IMG/VR virus record: IMGVR_UViG_2585427748_000014
Span: 1-35,993 of that record
DNA length: 35,993 nt
Source of the DNA: a virus
Taxonomy: Duplodnaviria > Heunggongvirae > Uroviricota > Caudoviricetes
Direction: 5' to 3' (one strand)
Part shown: in pieces, positions 1,776-19,147 of the stretch
How positions within the stretch are numbered: the first letter of the stretch is position 1
Layout: each line of letters begins with the position of its first letter
Notes under the pieces: generated by a model
Databases searched by the model: none
What the model was told of the DNA's origin: nothing
Seen by the model: the letters and a program-made list of their open reading frames with translations, nothing else
Program-made: the position numbers and the translations under genes

Positions 1776-1839
1776 TTAACTTAGTTATTATGGCAAGAGA
1801 AAACACCAAACTTTTCTTAGTTCGGTGCCTTAGTTAGAG
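1776..1839. promoter_or_regulatory. OL-like operator cluster: three CTTAGTT motifs (1780-1786, 1816-1822, 1829-1835) just beyond the cI stop
   Basis: Same 7-mer as in the cI-cro intergenic sites, clustered on the other side of cI. Confidence 0.45.
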
Positions 1840-1849
1840 AAGAGAGGTC

Positions 1850-2476
1850 TTAGAGTTCGTATTGAACTCCTTTGACTACACCAATGATAAGGCAATTACC
1901 ATTGATAGGGATGTTGGGATACCGAGGATTTAATGGCACTAAAAACTTTTGAGGGCCATCGATGACTAATTTTTTTACTGTAGCTTCGTTTGTTCCATCA
2001 AGTCGAGCGATGACTATTTTTCCATGACGAGGTTCTGCATCTGGATCTACAATCACTGTTGCGCCTTCTGGTATTGTTGGGAGGCCATTAGGGTTAGTCA
2101 TGGAGTCACCTTTAACCTCTAATGCAAATGAGTTATCACCAATCTTTAATGATGTATCTACCCACTTGTCCACTTCACTAAACACTTCTGCTGCCCTGCA
2201 CTCAGTAAACTGCCCAGCCTGAACCCACGATATTACAGGAACTCTGCGCATGTTTGTGACGAGTTTGCCTTCAAACTCAGCACCATAAAGAATGTAATCT
2301 ATTGACGTATTGAAGAACTTCGCTAATTTCGAAAGTGCCTCCCCACCAGGGGTATTGATGTCTTTCTCCCAGTACCCCACAGCAACGTCGCTTACTCCAC
2401 AAAATTTACCCAATTCTTTCTGGGACGTTCCGGTAACTCTTCTCAGAGCTTTTATACGCTGACCAACCGTTTCCAT
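1850..2476 (-). CDS. cI: Prophage repressor, cI/LexA-like (N-terminal XRE-type HTH plus C-terminal S24 peptidase domain)
   Basis: 208-aa ORF; HTH segment QKELGKFCGVSDVAVGYWEK; C-terminal GDSM...KKLV consistent with a Ser-Lys autocleavage dyad; divergent from the Cro-like gene; no Shine-Dalgarno, consistent with a leaderless message. Confidence 0.9.
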   Translation of the reverse strand: METVGQRIKALRRVTGTSQKELGKFCGVSDVAVGYWEKDINTPGGEALSKLAKFFNTSIDYILYGAEFEGKLVTNMRRVPVISWVQAGQFTECRAAEVFSEVDKWVDTSLKIGDNSFALEVKGDSMTNPNGLPTIPEGATVIVDPDAEPRHGKIVIARLDGTNEATVKKLVIDGPQKFLVPLNPRYPNIPINGNCLIIGVVKGVQYEL

Positions 2477-2498
2477 AGGAGCACCATTTCTTGAATTG

Positions 2499-2562
2499 CT
2501 AAGTAATCTTAGTTTTTATTGACCAAAGATAGATTTGTAATTAGCATCTAATAAAACTTAGT
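2499..2562. promoter_or_regulatory. OR-like operator/promoter region between cI and cro: two 14-bp sites (2499-2512 CTAAGTAATCTTAG; 2548-2561 CTAATAAAACTTAG) and a candidate PR (-35 TTGACC 2519-2524, 17-bp spacer, -10 TAGCAT 2542-2547)
   Basis: Inverted-repeat sites carrying the shared CTTAGTT motif flank a sigma70-like promoter in the divergent intergenic region. Confidence 0.55.
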
Positions 2563-2573
2563 TTGGAGGGCGT

Positions 2574-2774
2574 ATGACAACTGACGATATCGAAAGCTAC
2601 TTCGGCAGTATTGAGAAAGTTGCTGCTTTTTTCGGCATAACAACTGAAGCCGTTTATCAGTGGCGAAACCGTCCGGGCCAGTTAATTCCAAAAGGACGTG
2701 CAGCAGAAGCTGCATATAGAACTTGCGGACGGTTGCCATTTAAACCTGAGCTTTATGAAAAATCTAATGGATAA
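2574..2774 (+). CDS. cro: Cro-like DNA-binding regulator (Cro/YdaS-type HTH)
   Basis: 66-aa ORF divergent from cI; GGAGG 4 nt upstream; HTH-like segment VAAFFGITTEAVYQWRNR. Confidence 0.75.
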   Translation: MTTDDIESYFGSIEKVAAFFGITTEAVYQWRNRPGQLIPKGRAAEAAYRTCGRLPFKPELYEKSNG

Positions 2775-3363
2775 ATCGATTAACAGAAACCACAGAACGA
2801 TGAGGCTAACCGTGGGTAAGCATCACTGGAAAGTAGAAAAACAGCCTGAGTGGTACGTGAAAGCTGTCAGAAAAACTATCGCAGCGTTGCCGGGTGGTTA
2901 CGCTGAAGCAGCTGACTGGCTGGATGTAACAGAAAACGCATTATTTAACCGTCTTCGTGCCGATGGCGATCAGATTTTCCCGCTGGGATGGGCAATGATT
3001 TTGCAACGTGCTGGTGGAACTCACTTCATTGCTGACGCTGTGGCGCAGTCTGCAAATGGCGTCTTTGTGTCTCTTCCTGACGTCGAGGATGTGGACAACG
3101 CCGATATTAACCAGCGCCTGCTGGAAGTCATTGAACAGATTGGCAGTTATTCCAGACAGATTCGTTCGGCAATCGAAGACGGTGTGGTGGAACCGCATGA
3201 GAAGACAGCAATTAACGACGAGCTGTATCTCTCAATTTCGAAGCTGCAGGAGCATGCAGCACTGGTCTACAAAATCTTTTGCATTTCAGAAAGTAATGAC
3301 GCCCGCGAGTGTGCAGCTCCGGGCGCCGTGGCGTGTCGTGACTGTGGAGAAACTAACGCATGA
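2755..3363 (+). CDS. Hypothetical early regulatory protein (possibly YdaT/CII-like); start uncertain (2755, 2767 or 2800)
   Basis: Long ORF immediately after cro; no strong Shine-Dalgarno, so translational coupling is possible. Confidence 0.45.
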
Positions 3364-3698
3364 ACAGTTTAACAACACACTACCGTCGCTCGCAACTGAT
3401 TGCGCTTCCTGTACCGGGTGGAAAAGCGAAGGTGGAGTATTGCTATGCAGTTAATGTACCAGGTGACAGGGAAATTGTAACCCACAGCTTTGCTGAGTGG
3501 GCTGTGGGTGATTTCAACCGGCAGAAGGAGACAGTCCTTTGCGACAAGTTAACCGCTGGTTCAAAGATCACTACGGAGTGCCCGTCAGAGTCATTCGTTG
3601 GGAGCCGGAAACACAACGAGTTATCTACCTCCGCGAAGGCTATGAGCATGAGTGCTTCAGCCCGCTCGAACAGTTTCGTCGTAAATTCAGGGAAATAG
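3360..3698 (+). CDS. Hypothetical protein; its 3' half may be mis-framed (see finding on the alternative frame 3539..3718)
   Basis: ATG overlaps the upstream stop (ATGA); the C-terminal half is Ser-rich and low-complexity, while an overlapping frame encodes a more protein-like sequence. Confidence 0.35.
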
Positions 3699-3707
3699 AG
3701 GTCGGTC

Positions 3708-4649
3708 ATGAGCACTAAATTAACCGGCTATGTATGGGATGGTTGCGCTGCATCAGGCATGAAATTATCCAGCGTGGCAATTATGGCCCGCCTGGCTGAT
3801 TTCAGTAATGACGAAGGTGTGTGCTGGCCATCAATTGAAACTATTGCCCGTCAGATTGGCGCGGGGATGAGTACCGTCAGGACGGCTATCGCACGGCTGG
3901 AAGCAGAAGGCTGGTTAACACGTAAGGCGCGTCGCCAGGGTAACCGCAATGCGTCGAATGTTTATCAGCTTAACGTTGCGAAGCTTCAGGCAGCGGCATT
4001 TTCTCAACTGTCAGATTCTGACCCGTCAAAATCTGACGCATCAAAATCTGACCCGTCAAAATTTGATGCGTCGAAATCTGGCAAAAAAGCGGGTTTTCAC
4101 CCGTCAGAATCTGGCGGGGATCCGTCAGTAAAATCAAAACATGATCCGTCAGATAAAAAACCTTCTCGTCCGGACGCTTCGCAACCGGACACGCAGACGG
4201 ATGAACAGGATTTTTTAACTCGCCATCCTGATGCGGTTGTATTCAGCCCTAAAAAGCGCCAGTGGGGAACGCAGGATGATTTGACCTGCGCACAGTGGCT
4301 CTGGAAAAAAATCATCGCCCTGTACGAGCAAGCCGCCGAATGTGACGGCGAGGTGGTTCGTCCCAAAGAACCGAACTGGACAGCCTGGGCAAACGAAATT
4401 CGCCTGATGTGTGTGCAGGATGGTCGTACTCACAAACAAATCTGCGAGATGTACAGCCGCGTCAGCCGCGATCCGTTCTGGTGCCGTAACGTGCTCAGCC
4501 CGTCGAAGTTGCGGGAAAAATGGGATGAGCTTTCCCTGCGCTTATCACCGTCCGTCAGCACGTACACCGAAAAACGCGAAGACCCGTACTTCAAAGCCAG
4601 TTACGACAACGTGGACTACAGCCAGATCCCGGCAGGATTCAGGGGGTGA
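3708..4649 (+). CDS. Replication initiation protein, O-like (N-terminal wHTH; internal linker encoded by iterons)
   Basis: AGAGG 6 nt upstream of ATG; N-terminal HTH segment; tandem 15-bp repeats inside the gene, as for lambda O/ori. Confidence 0.7.
   Translation: MSTKLTGYVWDGCAASGMKLSSVAIMARLADFSNDEGVCWPSIETIARQIGAGMSTVRTAIARLEAEGWLTRKARRQGNRNASNVYQLNVAKLQAAAFSQLSDSDPSKSDASKSDPSKFDASKSGKKAGFHPSESGGDPSVKSKHDPSDKKPSRPDASQPDTQTDEQDFLTRHPDAVVFSPKKRQWGTQDDLTCAQWLWKKIIALYEQAAECDGEVVRPKEPNWTAWANEIRLMCVQDGRTHKQICEMYSRVSRDPFWCRNVLSPSKLREKWDELSLRLSPSVSTYTEKREDPYFKASYDNVDYSQIPAGFRG
4009..4160. repeat. Iteron array (candidate ori): five tandem 15-bp repeats (consensus about CCGTCAAAATCTGAC, 4009-4082) plus three degenerate copies (4101-4115, 4122-4136, 4146-4160), ending in an A-rich tract
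   Basis: Direct tandem repeats read from the sequence; they lie inside the O-like gene. Confidence 0.75.
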
Positions 4650-4651
4650 TC

Positions 4652-5140
4652 ATGAGTCTTTTGAATGACGTTCAGAAATTCATTGAAGCCCATCCGGGGT
4701 GTACTTCCGGAGACATTGCAGATGCTTTTGCTGGTTACTCACGGCAGCGCGTTCTGCAGTCAGCAAGCAAGTTACGTCAGAGTGGGCGTGTGGCTCACCG
4801 TTGTGAAGGGGATACACGCAGACATTTCCCGCGCCTGACTGAGAGAGCGCAGGAGCCGGAACCACAACCAGTTCGTGAAACCAGACCTGTGCGCAATTTC
4901 TATGTCGGCACTAACGACCCCCGGGTGATTTTGTGCCTGACCCGCCAGGCTGAAGAACTGGAGTCCAGGGGCTTATTCCGTCGAGCTGCAACGGTGTGGA
5001 TGGAGGCATTCCGTGAAAGCCACTCCCAGCCAGAACGAAACAATTTTCTGGCGCATCGTGAGCGGTGCTTACGGAAAAGCAGCAAGCGCGCTGCATCGGG
5101 TGAAGAGTGGTATCTGTCAGGGAATTACGTGGGGGCTTAA
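4652..5140 (+). CDS. PerC-family-like transcriptional regulator (C-terminal PerC/Pch-like motif)
   Basis: AGGGGG 5 nt upstream of ATG 4652; C-terminal motif EELESRGLFRRAATVWMEAF resembles the PerC/Pch signature. Confidence 0.45.
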   Translation: MSLLNDVQKFIEAHPGCTSGDIADAFAGYSRQRVLQSASKLRQSGRVAHRCEGDTRRHFPRLTERAQEPEPQPVRETRPVRNFYVGTNDPRVILCLTRQAEELESRGLFRRAATVWMEAFRESHSQPERNNFLAHRERCLRKSSKRAASGEEWYLSGNYVGA

Positions 5141-5793
5141 TGAGTAATAAATATTGCCAGGCGCTGGTGGAGCTGCGAAACAAACCAGCCCATGAACTGA
5201 AGGAAGTGGGCGATCAGTGGCGCACGCCGGACAACATTTTCTGGGGAATTAACACCCTGTTTGGCCCGTTTGTTCTGGATCTGTTCACTGATGGTGATAA
5301 CGCCAAATGTGCCGCTTATTACACTGCGGAAGACAACGCGCTGGCGCATGACTGGTCTGAACGTCTTGCGGAGCTTAAAGGTGCTGCCTTTGGTAATCCC
5401 CCGTACAGCCGCGCCAGTCAGCATGAGGGGCAATACATCACCGGCATGCGTTACATCATGAAACATGCCAGTGCTATGCGTGATAAAGGCGGGCGCTATG
5501 TTTTCCTGATCAAAGCTGCCACCAGCGAAGTTTGGTGGCCGGAAGATGCAGACCATATTGCTTTTATTCGCGGGCGTATTGGTTTTGAACTGCCAGCCTG
5601 GTTTATCCCGAAGGATGAGAAGCAGGTTCCGACAGGAGCTTTCTTCGCTGGTGCTATTGCTGTTTTCGACAAGACCTGGAAGGGACCGGCAATCAGCTAC
5701 ATCGGGCGCGATGAACTTGAGGCATGTGGTGAGGCCTTTCTGGCGCAGGTTCGCCAGCAGGCAGAAAAACTGGTCAGGGAGATGGTGGCATGA
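5140..5793 (+). CDS. Phage DNA N-6-adenine methyltransferase (Dam-like)
   Basis: NPPY motif (GNPPYS); start overlaps the upstream stop (TAATG); GGGGG Shine-Dalgarno. Confidence 0.8.
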   Translation: MSNKYCQALVELRNKPAHELKEVGDQWRTPDNIFWGINTLFGPFVLDLFTDGDNAKCAAYYTAEDNALAHDWSERLAELKGAAFGNPPYSRASQHEGQYITGMRYIMKHASAMRDKGGRYVFLIKAATSEVWWPEDADHIAFIRGRIGFELPAWFIPKDEKQVPTGAFFAGAIAVFDKTWKGPAISYIGRDELEACGEAFLAQVRQQAEKLVREMVA

Positions 5794-17941: not shown

Positions 17942-19147
17942 ATGGCGGTTGATATTAAAGATGTGGAACAGGTCGCGCAGGAGCTGCAGCAGAAGTTTGA
18001 CGACTTCAAAGCAAAGAACGACAAGCGCGTGGATGCGATTGAGCAGGAAAAAGGCAAACTTGCCGGGCAGGTGGAAACCCTGAACGGGAAACTCAGCGAG
18101 CTGGAAAATCTCAAAAGCGACCTTGAAAAAGAGCTGCTTGAGCTGAAACGTCCGGCAGGTGGTGTGCAAAATAAACTGGCCACTGAGCATAAAGAGGCTT
18201 TTGTGGGCTTCCTGCGTAAAGGCCGTGAAGACGGTCTGCGCGATCTGGAGCGTAAGGCATTGCAGGTGGGCACCGATGAAGACGGTGGCTACGCCGTGCC
18301 GGAAGAACTGGATCGCAACATTCTCAACCTGCTGAAAGATGAAGTGGTGATGCGTCAGGAAGCCACGGTGATCACCGTTGGCGGTTCCGACTACAAAAAA
18401 CTGGTGAATCTGGGCGGCACGGCTTCCGGATGGGTGGGGGAAACGGATACGCGATCCCAGACTGCCACCTCCAGACTGGAGCTGATTGAACCTCTCATGG
18501 GGGAAATCTACGGCAACCCGCAGGCTACCCAGAAAATGCTGGACGATGCCTTCTTCAACGTGGAGGCCTGGATCAACAGCGAGCTGGCAACCGAATTTGC
18601 TGAACAGGAAGAAATTGCCTTTACCTCCGGCGATGGCATCAAGAAGCCGAAAGGGTTCCTGGCGTATGAATCCACGGATGAAACCGATAAGGTCCGGGCG
18701 TTCGGCAAACTTCAGCATATTGTATCCGGCGAAGCGACTGCGGTGACCGCAGACGCCATTATCAAACTGATTTACACGCTGCGTAAGGCACACCGCACTG
18801 GCGCGAAGTTCATGATGAACAACAACAGCCTGTTTGCCATCCGTCTGCTTAAAGACAGCGAGGGTAACTATCTGTGGCGTCCGGGGCTGGAACTGGGGCA
18901 GCCGTCCTCTCTGGCGGGTTACGGTATCGCTGAAAACGAACAGATGCCGGATATCGCCGCTGATGCGAAAGCCATTGCATTTGGTAACTTCAAACGGGGT
19001 TACACCATCGTTGACCGTATCGGCACCCGCATTCTGCGTGACCCGTACACCAATAAACCGTTTGTCGGTTTTTATACCACCAAGCGCACCGGCGGGATGC
19101 TGGTCGATTCGCAGGCCATCAAACTGCTGAAGATTGCAGCGGCGTAA
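17942..19147 (+). CDS. Major capsid protein (HK97 fold) with N-terminal coiled-coil delta domain
   Basis: AGGAG Shine-Dalgarno; 401 aa; N-terminal coiled-coil then a capsid domain. Confidence 0.9.
   Translation: MAVDIKDVEQVAQELQQKFDDFKAKNDKRVDAIEQEKGKLAGQVETLNGKLSELENLKSDLEKELLELKRPAGGVQNKLATEHKEAFVGFLRKGREDGLRDLERKALQVGTDEDGGYAVPEELDRNILNLLKDEVVMRQEATVITVGGSDYKKLVNLGGTASGWVGETDTRSQTATSRLELIEPLMGEIYGNPQATQKMLDDAFFNVEAWINSELATEFAEQEEIAFTSGDGIKKPKGFLAYESTDETDKVRAFGKLQHIVSGEATAVTADAIIKLIYTLRKAHRTGAKFMMNNNSLFAIRLLKDSEGNYLWRPGLELGQPSSLAGYGIAENEQMPDIAADAKAIAFGNFKRGYTIVDRIGTRILRDPYTNKPFVGFYTTKRTGGMLVDSQAIKLLKIAAA

What the first reader, a model, noticed from the sequence alone, without database searches (positions are those of the whole stretch)
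4009..4160. Iteron-type origin embedded in the O-like replication gene
Five tandem 15-bp repeats plus three degenerate copies, followed by an A-rich tract, lie inside the O-like gene and encode a repetitive Ser/Asp/Lys linker. This matches the lambda ori-in-O arrangement.
Basis: partly seen in the sequence, partly recalled or inferred. Interest (0 to 1): 0.4.

Follow-up and report, generated by a model that had tools for sequence, protein, structure and literature searches.

The report
Prophage replication origin inside initiator gene
A run of short palindromic DNA repeats in the middle of a prophage replication-initiator gene is almost certainly that phage's replication origin, built on the same plan as phage lambda's; this is an ordinary kind of element, but it is not annotated, and in E. 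coli K-12 the same repeats have been published as binding sites of a host regulator.

Summary
Window 4010-4082 carries five head-to-tail 15-bp units, each a 13-bp imperfect palindrome GTCARAWTCTGAC plus 2 bp. A sixth copy lies at 4103-4115. Two GATCCGTCAG repeats, 24 bp apart, sit in the least stable stretch of the gene. All of this lies inside a 313-aa initiator gene (3708-4649) and encodes a predicted disordered linker between a winged-helix N-terminal domain and a C-terminal domain homologous to that of lambda O.

Comparison with 68 relatives from many Enterobacterales genera shows constraint on the DNA, not on the peptide. Silent sites are frozen here but saturated in the adjacent domain. 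Ser/Lys codons are almost fixed. Copy number varies from 2 to 8 tandem copies. The repeat sequence changes when the predicted recognition helix changes. Domain-swap relatives (phiNP, mEp460_4F5, SfV, P27) keep the N-terminal domain and the repeats together.

I read this as a lambda-style origin within the initiator gene, for the SfII/SfIV/CPS-53 replication module. It is a new member of a known kind; replication itself is untested. It differs from lambda in four ways: an HTH_36 N-terminal domain, contiguous 15-bp spacing, only a modest A+T-rich segment, and no P/DnaC loader gene.

One unexpected link emerged. The four published "SrsR boxes" of E. coli K-12 (yfdO/yfdP spacer) are iterons 1-4 of this array.

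The parts
3708..4649 (+). O-like replication initiator gene (313 aa). It is the intact form of the truncated E. coli K-12 CPS-53 gene yfdO.
   Evidence: ORF. Pfam HTH_36 4.3e-11. phrog_391 'replication initiation O-like' 1.2e-135. 98-100% identical to the SfII and SfIV genes. K-12 carries only nt 234-942.
3708..4001 (+). Region coding the N-terminal winged-helix domain (aa 1-98), the presumed iteron-binding domain. The predicted recognition helix spans aa 54-66 (STVRTAIARLEAE).
   Evidence: AlphaFold model with pLDDT 70-87 and H-H-H-H-E-E topology. Foldseek finds only MarR/ArsR-type winged-helix matches, with weak E-values. Pfam HTH_36/GntR/MarR.
4010..4082 (.). Five contiguous iterons: 13-bp imperfect palindromes GTCARAWTCTGAC separated by 2 bp, giving 15-bp centre-to-centre spacing. 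Cores at 4010-4022, 4025-4037, 4040-4052, 4055-4067 and 4070-4082.
   Evidence: The position matrix from 341 units in 68 relatives is nnG-TCA-RAW-TCT-GAC. Iterons 1-4 are the DNase I-protected 'SrsR boxes' in K-12.
4083..4102 (.). Spacer between the array and the sixth iteron. It contains an A6 tract (4083-4088) and a T4 tract (4094-4097).
   Evidence: An A-run followed by TTTT is kept in most relatives, with consensus AGCAAAAAAGGCGGTTTTGAC. On the minus strand it also scores as a weak terminator-like hairpin, but that hairpin is not conserved.
4103..4115 (.). Isolated sixth iteron, GTCAGAATCTGGC. It lies within the most conserved DNA block of the gene family.
   Evidence: One mismatch to the motif. 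The block TTTTsACCCGTCAGAATCTGGsGGGGATCCGTCAGTAAA is nearly invariant in 63 genes from many genera.
4119..4157 (.). Two GATCCGTCAG(W)(W)AAA repeats, at 4119-4133 and 4143-4157, 24 bp apart. Each is a Dam site (GATC) fused to an iteron half-site.
   Evidence: family D8. The pattern GATCCRTCAG occurs only at these two places in the window, against 0.07 expected. The Asp codon is GAT, never GAC, in 63/63 relatives at the first site and 55/63 at the second; the 24-nt spacing holds in 63/63. P27 has an analogous pair.
4127..4166 (.). Least stable, A-rich segment of the gene; the candidate DNA-unwinding region.
   Evidence: Nearest-neighbour stability profile: the gene's minimum for 30- and 40-nt windows, at the 94th-95th percentile of the whole window. 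This is the same side of the iterons as the lambda A+T-rich region.
4150..4186 (.). Module boundary. Relatives that share only the N-terminal domain plus repeats, or only the C-terminal domain, switch over here.
   Evidence: The mEp460_4F5 match starts at query nt 443, and phiNP similarity ends near query nt 479.
4203..4547 (+). Region coding the C-terminal helical domain (aa 166-280), homologous to the lambda O and phi80 gp15 C-terminal domains.
   Evidence: BLASTP against lambda O: 7e-26, 31% identity. tblastn hits to lambda, phi80 gene 15 and many Stx phages over aa 166-278. pLDDT 84-95.

Best explanation
The repeats are the replication origin of this SfII/SfIV/CPS-53-type prophage, and they lie inside the gene of the protein that fires it.

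Proposed mechanism; all steps are inferred except where marked:
1. The early rightward operon (cro at 2574-2774, a cII-like gene, then this gene) expresses the 313-aa initiator.
2. Its N-terminal winged-helix domain binds, probably as dimers, the 13-bp palindromes GTCARAWTCTGAC. There are five contiguous sites at 4010-4082 and a sixth at 4103-4115.
3. The resulting nucleoprotein complex, analogous to the lambda O-some, destabilises the adjacent A-rich, least stable segment (about 4119-4166). That segment carries two GATC-containing half-site repeats.
4. The lambda-O-like C-terminal domain brings in the host replicative helicase. Because the phage has no P or DnaC homologue, this must happen directly or through host DnaC or another factor. 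This is the weakest step.

Shown by analysis here:
- The repeats exist and are clustered.
- They are constrained as DNA rather than as peptide.
- They co-vary and co-inherit with the N-terminal domain.
- They encode a predicted disordered linker.

Shown by others: in K-12 DNA the same array is a strong multi-site protein-binding target in vitro, but the protein tested was the host regulator SrsR.
For: (1) Position and homology. The gene is O-like, its C-terminal domain is homologous to that of lambda O, and the repeats sit mid-gene as in lambda.

(2) Constraint on the DNA, window versus phiNP. Codons 1-100 show 43 synonymous and 13 non-synonymous differences, with third-position identity 49/100. 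Repeat codons 101-149 show 2 synonymous and 8 non-synonymous differences, with third-position identity 42/49. Fisher p = 1.3e-5.

(3) Constraint on the DNA, 63 relatives counted with no motif filter. Ser codons in the linker are TCA or TCT in 641 of 772 cases, against 320 of 1245 elsewhere in the same genes. Lys is AAA in 264 of 270 cases, against 548 of 896 elsewhere. Mean third-position information is 1.27 bits in the conserved block against 0.62 bits in the N-terminal domain.

(4) Within units, third codon positions (matrix positions 6, 9 and 12) are more conserved than first-codon position 7 and second-codon position 14. The dyad symmetry has no meaning for a peptide.

(5) Co-inheritance.
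- phiNP keeps the N-terminal domain and the repeats with an unrelated C-terminal domain (Phg_2220_C).
- mEp460_4F5 keeps the C-terminal domain with a different N-terminal domain and different repeats (CATCGGGTCAAAATG-type units, four to five copies about 23 bp apart).
- SfV has another N-terminal domain and GTGCAnnAnnTTCAC repeats.
- P27 has a 60%-identical N-terminal domain, TCAGAWTCTGAA repeats, and dnaC and helicase genes.

(6) Co-variation with the predicted recognition helix.
- STVRTAI goes with TCAGAWTCTGAC.
- STVITAI (L070, L071) goes with GTTCAGATTCTGAAC.
- KTTVSAAI (L072) goes with GGGGTCAAnnnTTGACCCC.

(7) Copy number varies by whole 15-bp units: 2 to 8 tandem copies across genera, plus the isolated downstream copy in most genes, and 303-, 313-, 319- and 323-aa alleles in E. 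coli and Salmonella.

(8) The general rule that lambda, P22 and L carry distinct iterons inside their O or 18 genes is stated in PMC8022706.

(9) The array is protected over 66 bp in a DNase I footprint on K-12 DNA (PMC9181523).
Against: - No replication assay, and no binding assay with the cognate initiator, exists for this module as far as I could find.
- The A+T-rich segment is weak: 62% A+T over 4116-4160, and the least stable 30-40-nt window is at only the 94th-95th percentile of the window.
- There is no phage helicase loader, although the C-terminal domain belongs to the type that binds P in lambda. Only 3 of 68 relatives have a P-like or DnaC-like gene next door.
- The 15-bp centre-to-centre spacing places neighbouring sites on nearly opposite faces of the helix, unlike lambda's 20-24 bp. 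An O-some-like wrapped structure is therefore not a given.
- The only protein shown experimentally to bind the array is a host LysR-type regulator.
- The codon and conservation statistics treat related genes, and repeats within one array, as independent. The p-values are therefore nominal.
Confidence: 0.75

Rival explanations
1. The array is primarily an operator for a host transcription factor. The LysR-type regulator SrsR (YgfI) binds the repeats to control transcription of the prophage genes, and the repeats have no origin function.
For: In PMC9181523 the strongest genomic-SELEX peak of SrsR in E. coli K-12 is the 'yfdO/yfdP spacer'. DNase I protection covers 66 bp with four boxes: TCAaATTTTGa, TCAGATTTTGa (twice) and TCAGAgTcTGa. 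SrsR over-expression or deletion changes yfdO and yfdK mRNA. These boxes are the reverse complements of iterons 1-4 in the K-12 sequence.
Against: - The array is inherited with the phage initiator's own N-terminal domain through domain swaps, and it changes with that domain's recognition helix.
- It is conserved in prophages of distant genera such as Providencia, Proteus, Yersinia and Pantoea. I did not test whether those genera have SrsR.
- It always sits in the linker-coding part of an initiator gene, not at a promoter.
- In K-12 it looks intergenic only because the gene is 5'-truncated.
- Footprinting used 10-40 uM protein.
- An independent study found that SrsR does not regulate another proposed target, fucAO (PMC11011485).
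- The two functions are not mutually exclusive.
Confidence: 0.08
2. The repeats are binding sites of the initiator, but they serve autoregulation or copy control (a roadblock or handcuffing). Strand opening and replisome assembly take place elsewhere in the phage genome.
For: The A+T-rich segment next to the repeats is weak. No DnaA boxes and no loader gene are nearby. Plasmid systems use iterons both for origins and for control; that point rests on my own knowledge.
Against: - The block immediately to the right of the array is the most conserved DNA in the gene. It contains the sixth iteron, the GATC pair and an A-rich run, and it includes the gene's stability minimum.
- The motif occurs essentially nowhere else in the 36-kb window.
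- In the best-studied homologous systems the in-gene iterons are the origin.
Confidence: 0.1
3. The repeats are only a slippage-prone, low-complexity linker of the protein, with no cis-acting role.
For: They encode a Ser/Asp/Lys-rich segment predicted to be disordered (pLDDT below 50, residues 102-163). Copy number varies by whole units, as expected for slippage.
Against: - Silent sites are conserved while amino acids vary.
- The units are palindromes.
- A non-tandem sixth copy and two half-site repeats are conserved at fixed distances.
- Unrelated N-terminal domains carry different repeats at the same place.
Confidence: 0.04

Closest known systems
Phage lambda ori-lambda inside gene O (O-some origin)
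   Same: - The iterons have dyad symmetry and an A-rich centre, and they lie mid-gene in the segment coding the linker between the DNA-binding N-terminal domain and the C-terminal domain.
- The least stable DNA lies to the right of the iterons.
- The C-terminal domain is homologous.
- The gene sits in the early rightward operon after cro and a cII-like gene.
- The N-terminal domain and the iterons behave as one exchangeable module.
   Different: - The N-terminal domain is Pfam HTH_36, not Phage_rep_O.
- There are six 13-bp sites, five of them contiguous at 15-bp spacing, against four 18-19-bp sites at 20-24 bp in lambda.
- The A+T-rich segment is much weaker.
- There is no P gene.
- A conserved pair of GATC-containing repeats is present.
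P22 gene 18 and phage L gene 18 origins
   Same: They follow the same rule. Each initiator gene carries its own distinct internal repeats; L has six imprecise 11-bp repeats (PMC8022706).
   Different: The initiator sequences and repeat sequences differ. Those phages encode a DnaB-type helicase (gene 12) next to the initiator, and this one does not.
Replication modules of SfV (orf39), mEp460_4F5, phiNP and Stx phage P27 (L17)
   Same: They share the gene position and the layout: a winged-helix N-terminal domain (HTH_36 by Pfam in SfV and phiNP; no Pfam match for mEp460_4F5, and P27 L17 was not scanned), a repeat-coded linker, and an exchangeable C-terminal domain. phiNP and P27 share the repeat core TCAGAWTCTGA.
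   Different: - SfV and mEp460_4F5 have unrelated repeat sequences.
- phiNP has a Phg_2220_C C-terminal domain.
- P27 is followed by dnaC-like and helicase genes.
'SrsR boxes' in the yfdO/yfdP spacer of E. coli K-12 CPS-53 (PMC9181523)
   Same: They are the same DNA: the four published boxes are iterons 1-4 of the K-12 copy of this array.
   Different: They were published as operators of a host LysR-type regulator in an intergenic region. The paper mentions neither iterons nor a phage origin. Here they are read as the remains of a phage origin inside a 5'-truncated initiator gene.
Plasmid iteron origins (pSC101, R6K, RK2, P1 oriR)
   Same: They have multiple initiator-binding repeats beside an unwinding region. 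P1 oriR also has GATC-containing repeats in its A+T-rich part; that point rests on my own knowledge.
   Different: Plasmid iterons are usually 17-22-bp direct repeats bound by monomers, spaced by about two helical turns, accompanied by DnaA boxes, and located outside the rep coding sequence. Here the sites are palindromes 15 bp apart, there is no DnaA box, and the array lies inside the gene.

Membership tests
Lambdoid origin within the initiator gene (lambda ori type) | Several repeats with dyad symmetry clustered in the middle of the initiator gene | tested here: met
   Six sites in 4010-4115 inside ORF 3708-4649.
Lambdoid origin within the initiator gene (lambda ori type) | The repeats are constrained as DNA and are specific to the initiator's N-terminal DNA-binding domain | tested here: met
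   Silent-site conservation. Co-inheritance and co-variation with the N-terminal domain.
Lambdoid origin within the initiator gene (lambda ori type) | An A+T-rich unwinding region directly beside the repeats | tested here: inconclusive
   The gene's stability minimum is at 4127-4166, on the same side as in lambda, but only at the 94th-95th percentile of the window. Window 4116-4160 is 62% A+T against lambda's 74%.
Lambdoid origin within the initiator gene (lambda ori type) | The initiator binds the repeats, and the fragment replicates in an initiator-dependent way | not testable with these tools
   No experiment on this module was found. The only published footprint on this DNA used the host protein SrsR.
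Lambda O protein family | N-terminal domain of Pfam Phage_rep_O (PF04492) | tested here: not met
   The window protein hits HTH_36 (PF13730) and not PF04492. Lambda O hits PF04492 at 5.7e-36. BLASTP aligns only the linker and the C-terminal domain.
Lambda O protein family | C-terminal domain homologous to the P-binding domain of lambda O | tested here: met
   BLASTP 7e-26; aa 172-277 align with lambda O aa 177-270. tblastn hits lambda and phi80 gene 15.
Lambda O/P replication module | A cognate helicase-loader gene (P, DnaC-like or helicase) immediately downstream | tested here: not met
   The next gene is PerC-like with no similarity to lambda P. None is annotated in SfIV. Only 3 of 68 relatives have a P-like or DnaC-like neighbour.
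PHROG 391 / Pfam HTH_36 'replication initiation O-like' proteins | Full-length match to the family profile | tested here: met
   phrog_391 E = 1.2e-135 over residues 1-313. HTH_36 scores 42.9 bits against a cut-off of 25.
Plasmid-type iteron origin | DnaA box or boxes next to direct repeats located outside the rep gene | tested here: not met
   TTWTNCACA does not occur anywhere near the gene; the only match in the window is at 18163. The repeats are palindromic and intragenic.
SrsR (YgfI) regulon operator | SrsR protects the DNA and regulates adjacent genes | not testable with these tools
   This is reported for the K-12 copy in PMC9181523. Sequence identity with the iterons was verified here. 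In vivo relevance for intact prophages is unknown.

The most novel reading that the evidence does not exclude
The origin may be a three-way control point and not a simple copy of lambda's. The idea has three parts.
1. The host LysR-type regulator SrsR, whose best genomic target is this very array, competes or cooperates with the phage initiator at the iterons. This would couple prophage replication or induction to host stationary-phase or stress state.
2. The invariant pair of GATC sites in the unwinding region makes firing depend on Dam methylation or SeqA. A Dam-type methylase gene lies in the same module at 5140-5793.
3. A lambda-O-type C-terminal domain recruits the host helicase without any P protein. 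That would be a P-independent route for an O-type initiator.
Probability: 0.15. Interest if true: 0.6.

Novelty: new member of a known kind. Interest (0 to 1): 0.38.

Why it matters
- This replication module is widespread. It covers at least 80% of the gene in 1576 of 5426 complete E. coli genomes. It also occurs in the serotype-converting Shigella phages SfII and SfIV and in prophages of many Enterobacterales genera. Its origin is not annotated in any record I opened.
- Knowing the origin explains three things: the mosaic break-points in these genes, the length polymorphism and in-frame deletions of the protein, and the unusual codon usage of the linker.
- It gives a defined fragment for building replicons or for scoring whether a prophage is still replication-competent.
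- It puts a published result in a new light. The strongest "SrsR box" cluster of E. coli K-12 is a relic phage origin, so the SrsR consensus motif may largely be a phage iteron.
- The lack of a P or DnaC loader beside a lambda-O-type C-terminal domain raises a concrete, testable question about how the helicase is recruited.

Tried and rejected
- DnaA boxes: none near the gene.
- Sigma-70 promoter and terminator scan of 1800-5400. No promoter-like site was found within the array. One weak terminator-like hairpin lies on the minus strand at 4103-4090. It is not conserved in relatives and I dropped it.
- Rfam and tRNA scans: nothing in or near the gene.
- Whether the PerC-like downstream gene is a hidden P analogue: no similarity to lambda P, and Pfam and PHROG call it a transcription activator.
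- Sequence search of the PDB: only marginal MarR-type hits to the N-terminal domain. Foldseek on the model again gave only generic winged-helix folds with E above 1e-3 and nothing for the C-terminal domain.
- A homologue search with the N-terminal 101 aa alone returned only short or truncated proteins and was of little use. The genome-contig scan replaced it.
- My first unit count was inflated by an empty-sequence bug. I corrected it and cite only the corrected numbers.
- The SfV genome paper (PMC134923) is not held, so I could not check what it says about orf39.
- Literature searches for a description of this origin found none. Subscription journals are not covered, so prior description cannot be excluded.
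- The lambda right-hand palindrome (CGTCAGAGAATTCTGGCGAATCC) resembles window CGTCAGAATCTGGCGGGGATCC. I noted this but did not test it, and it may be chance.
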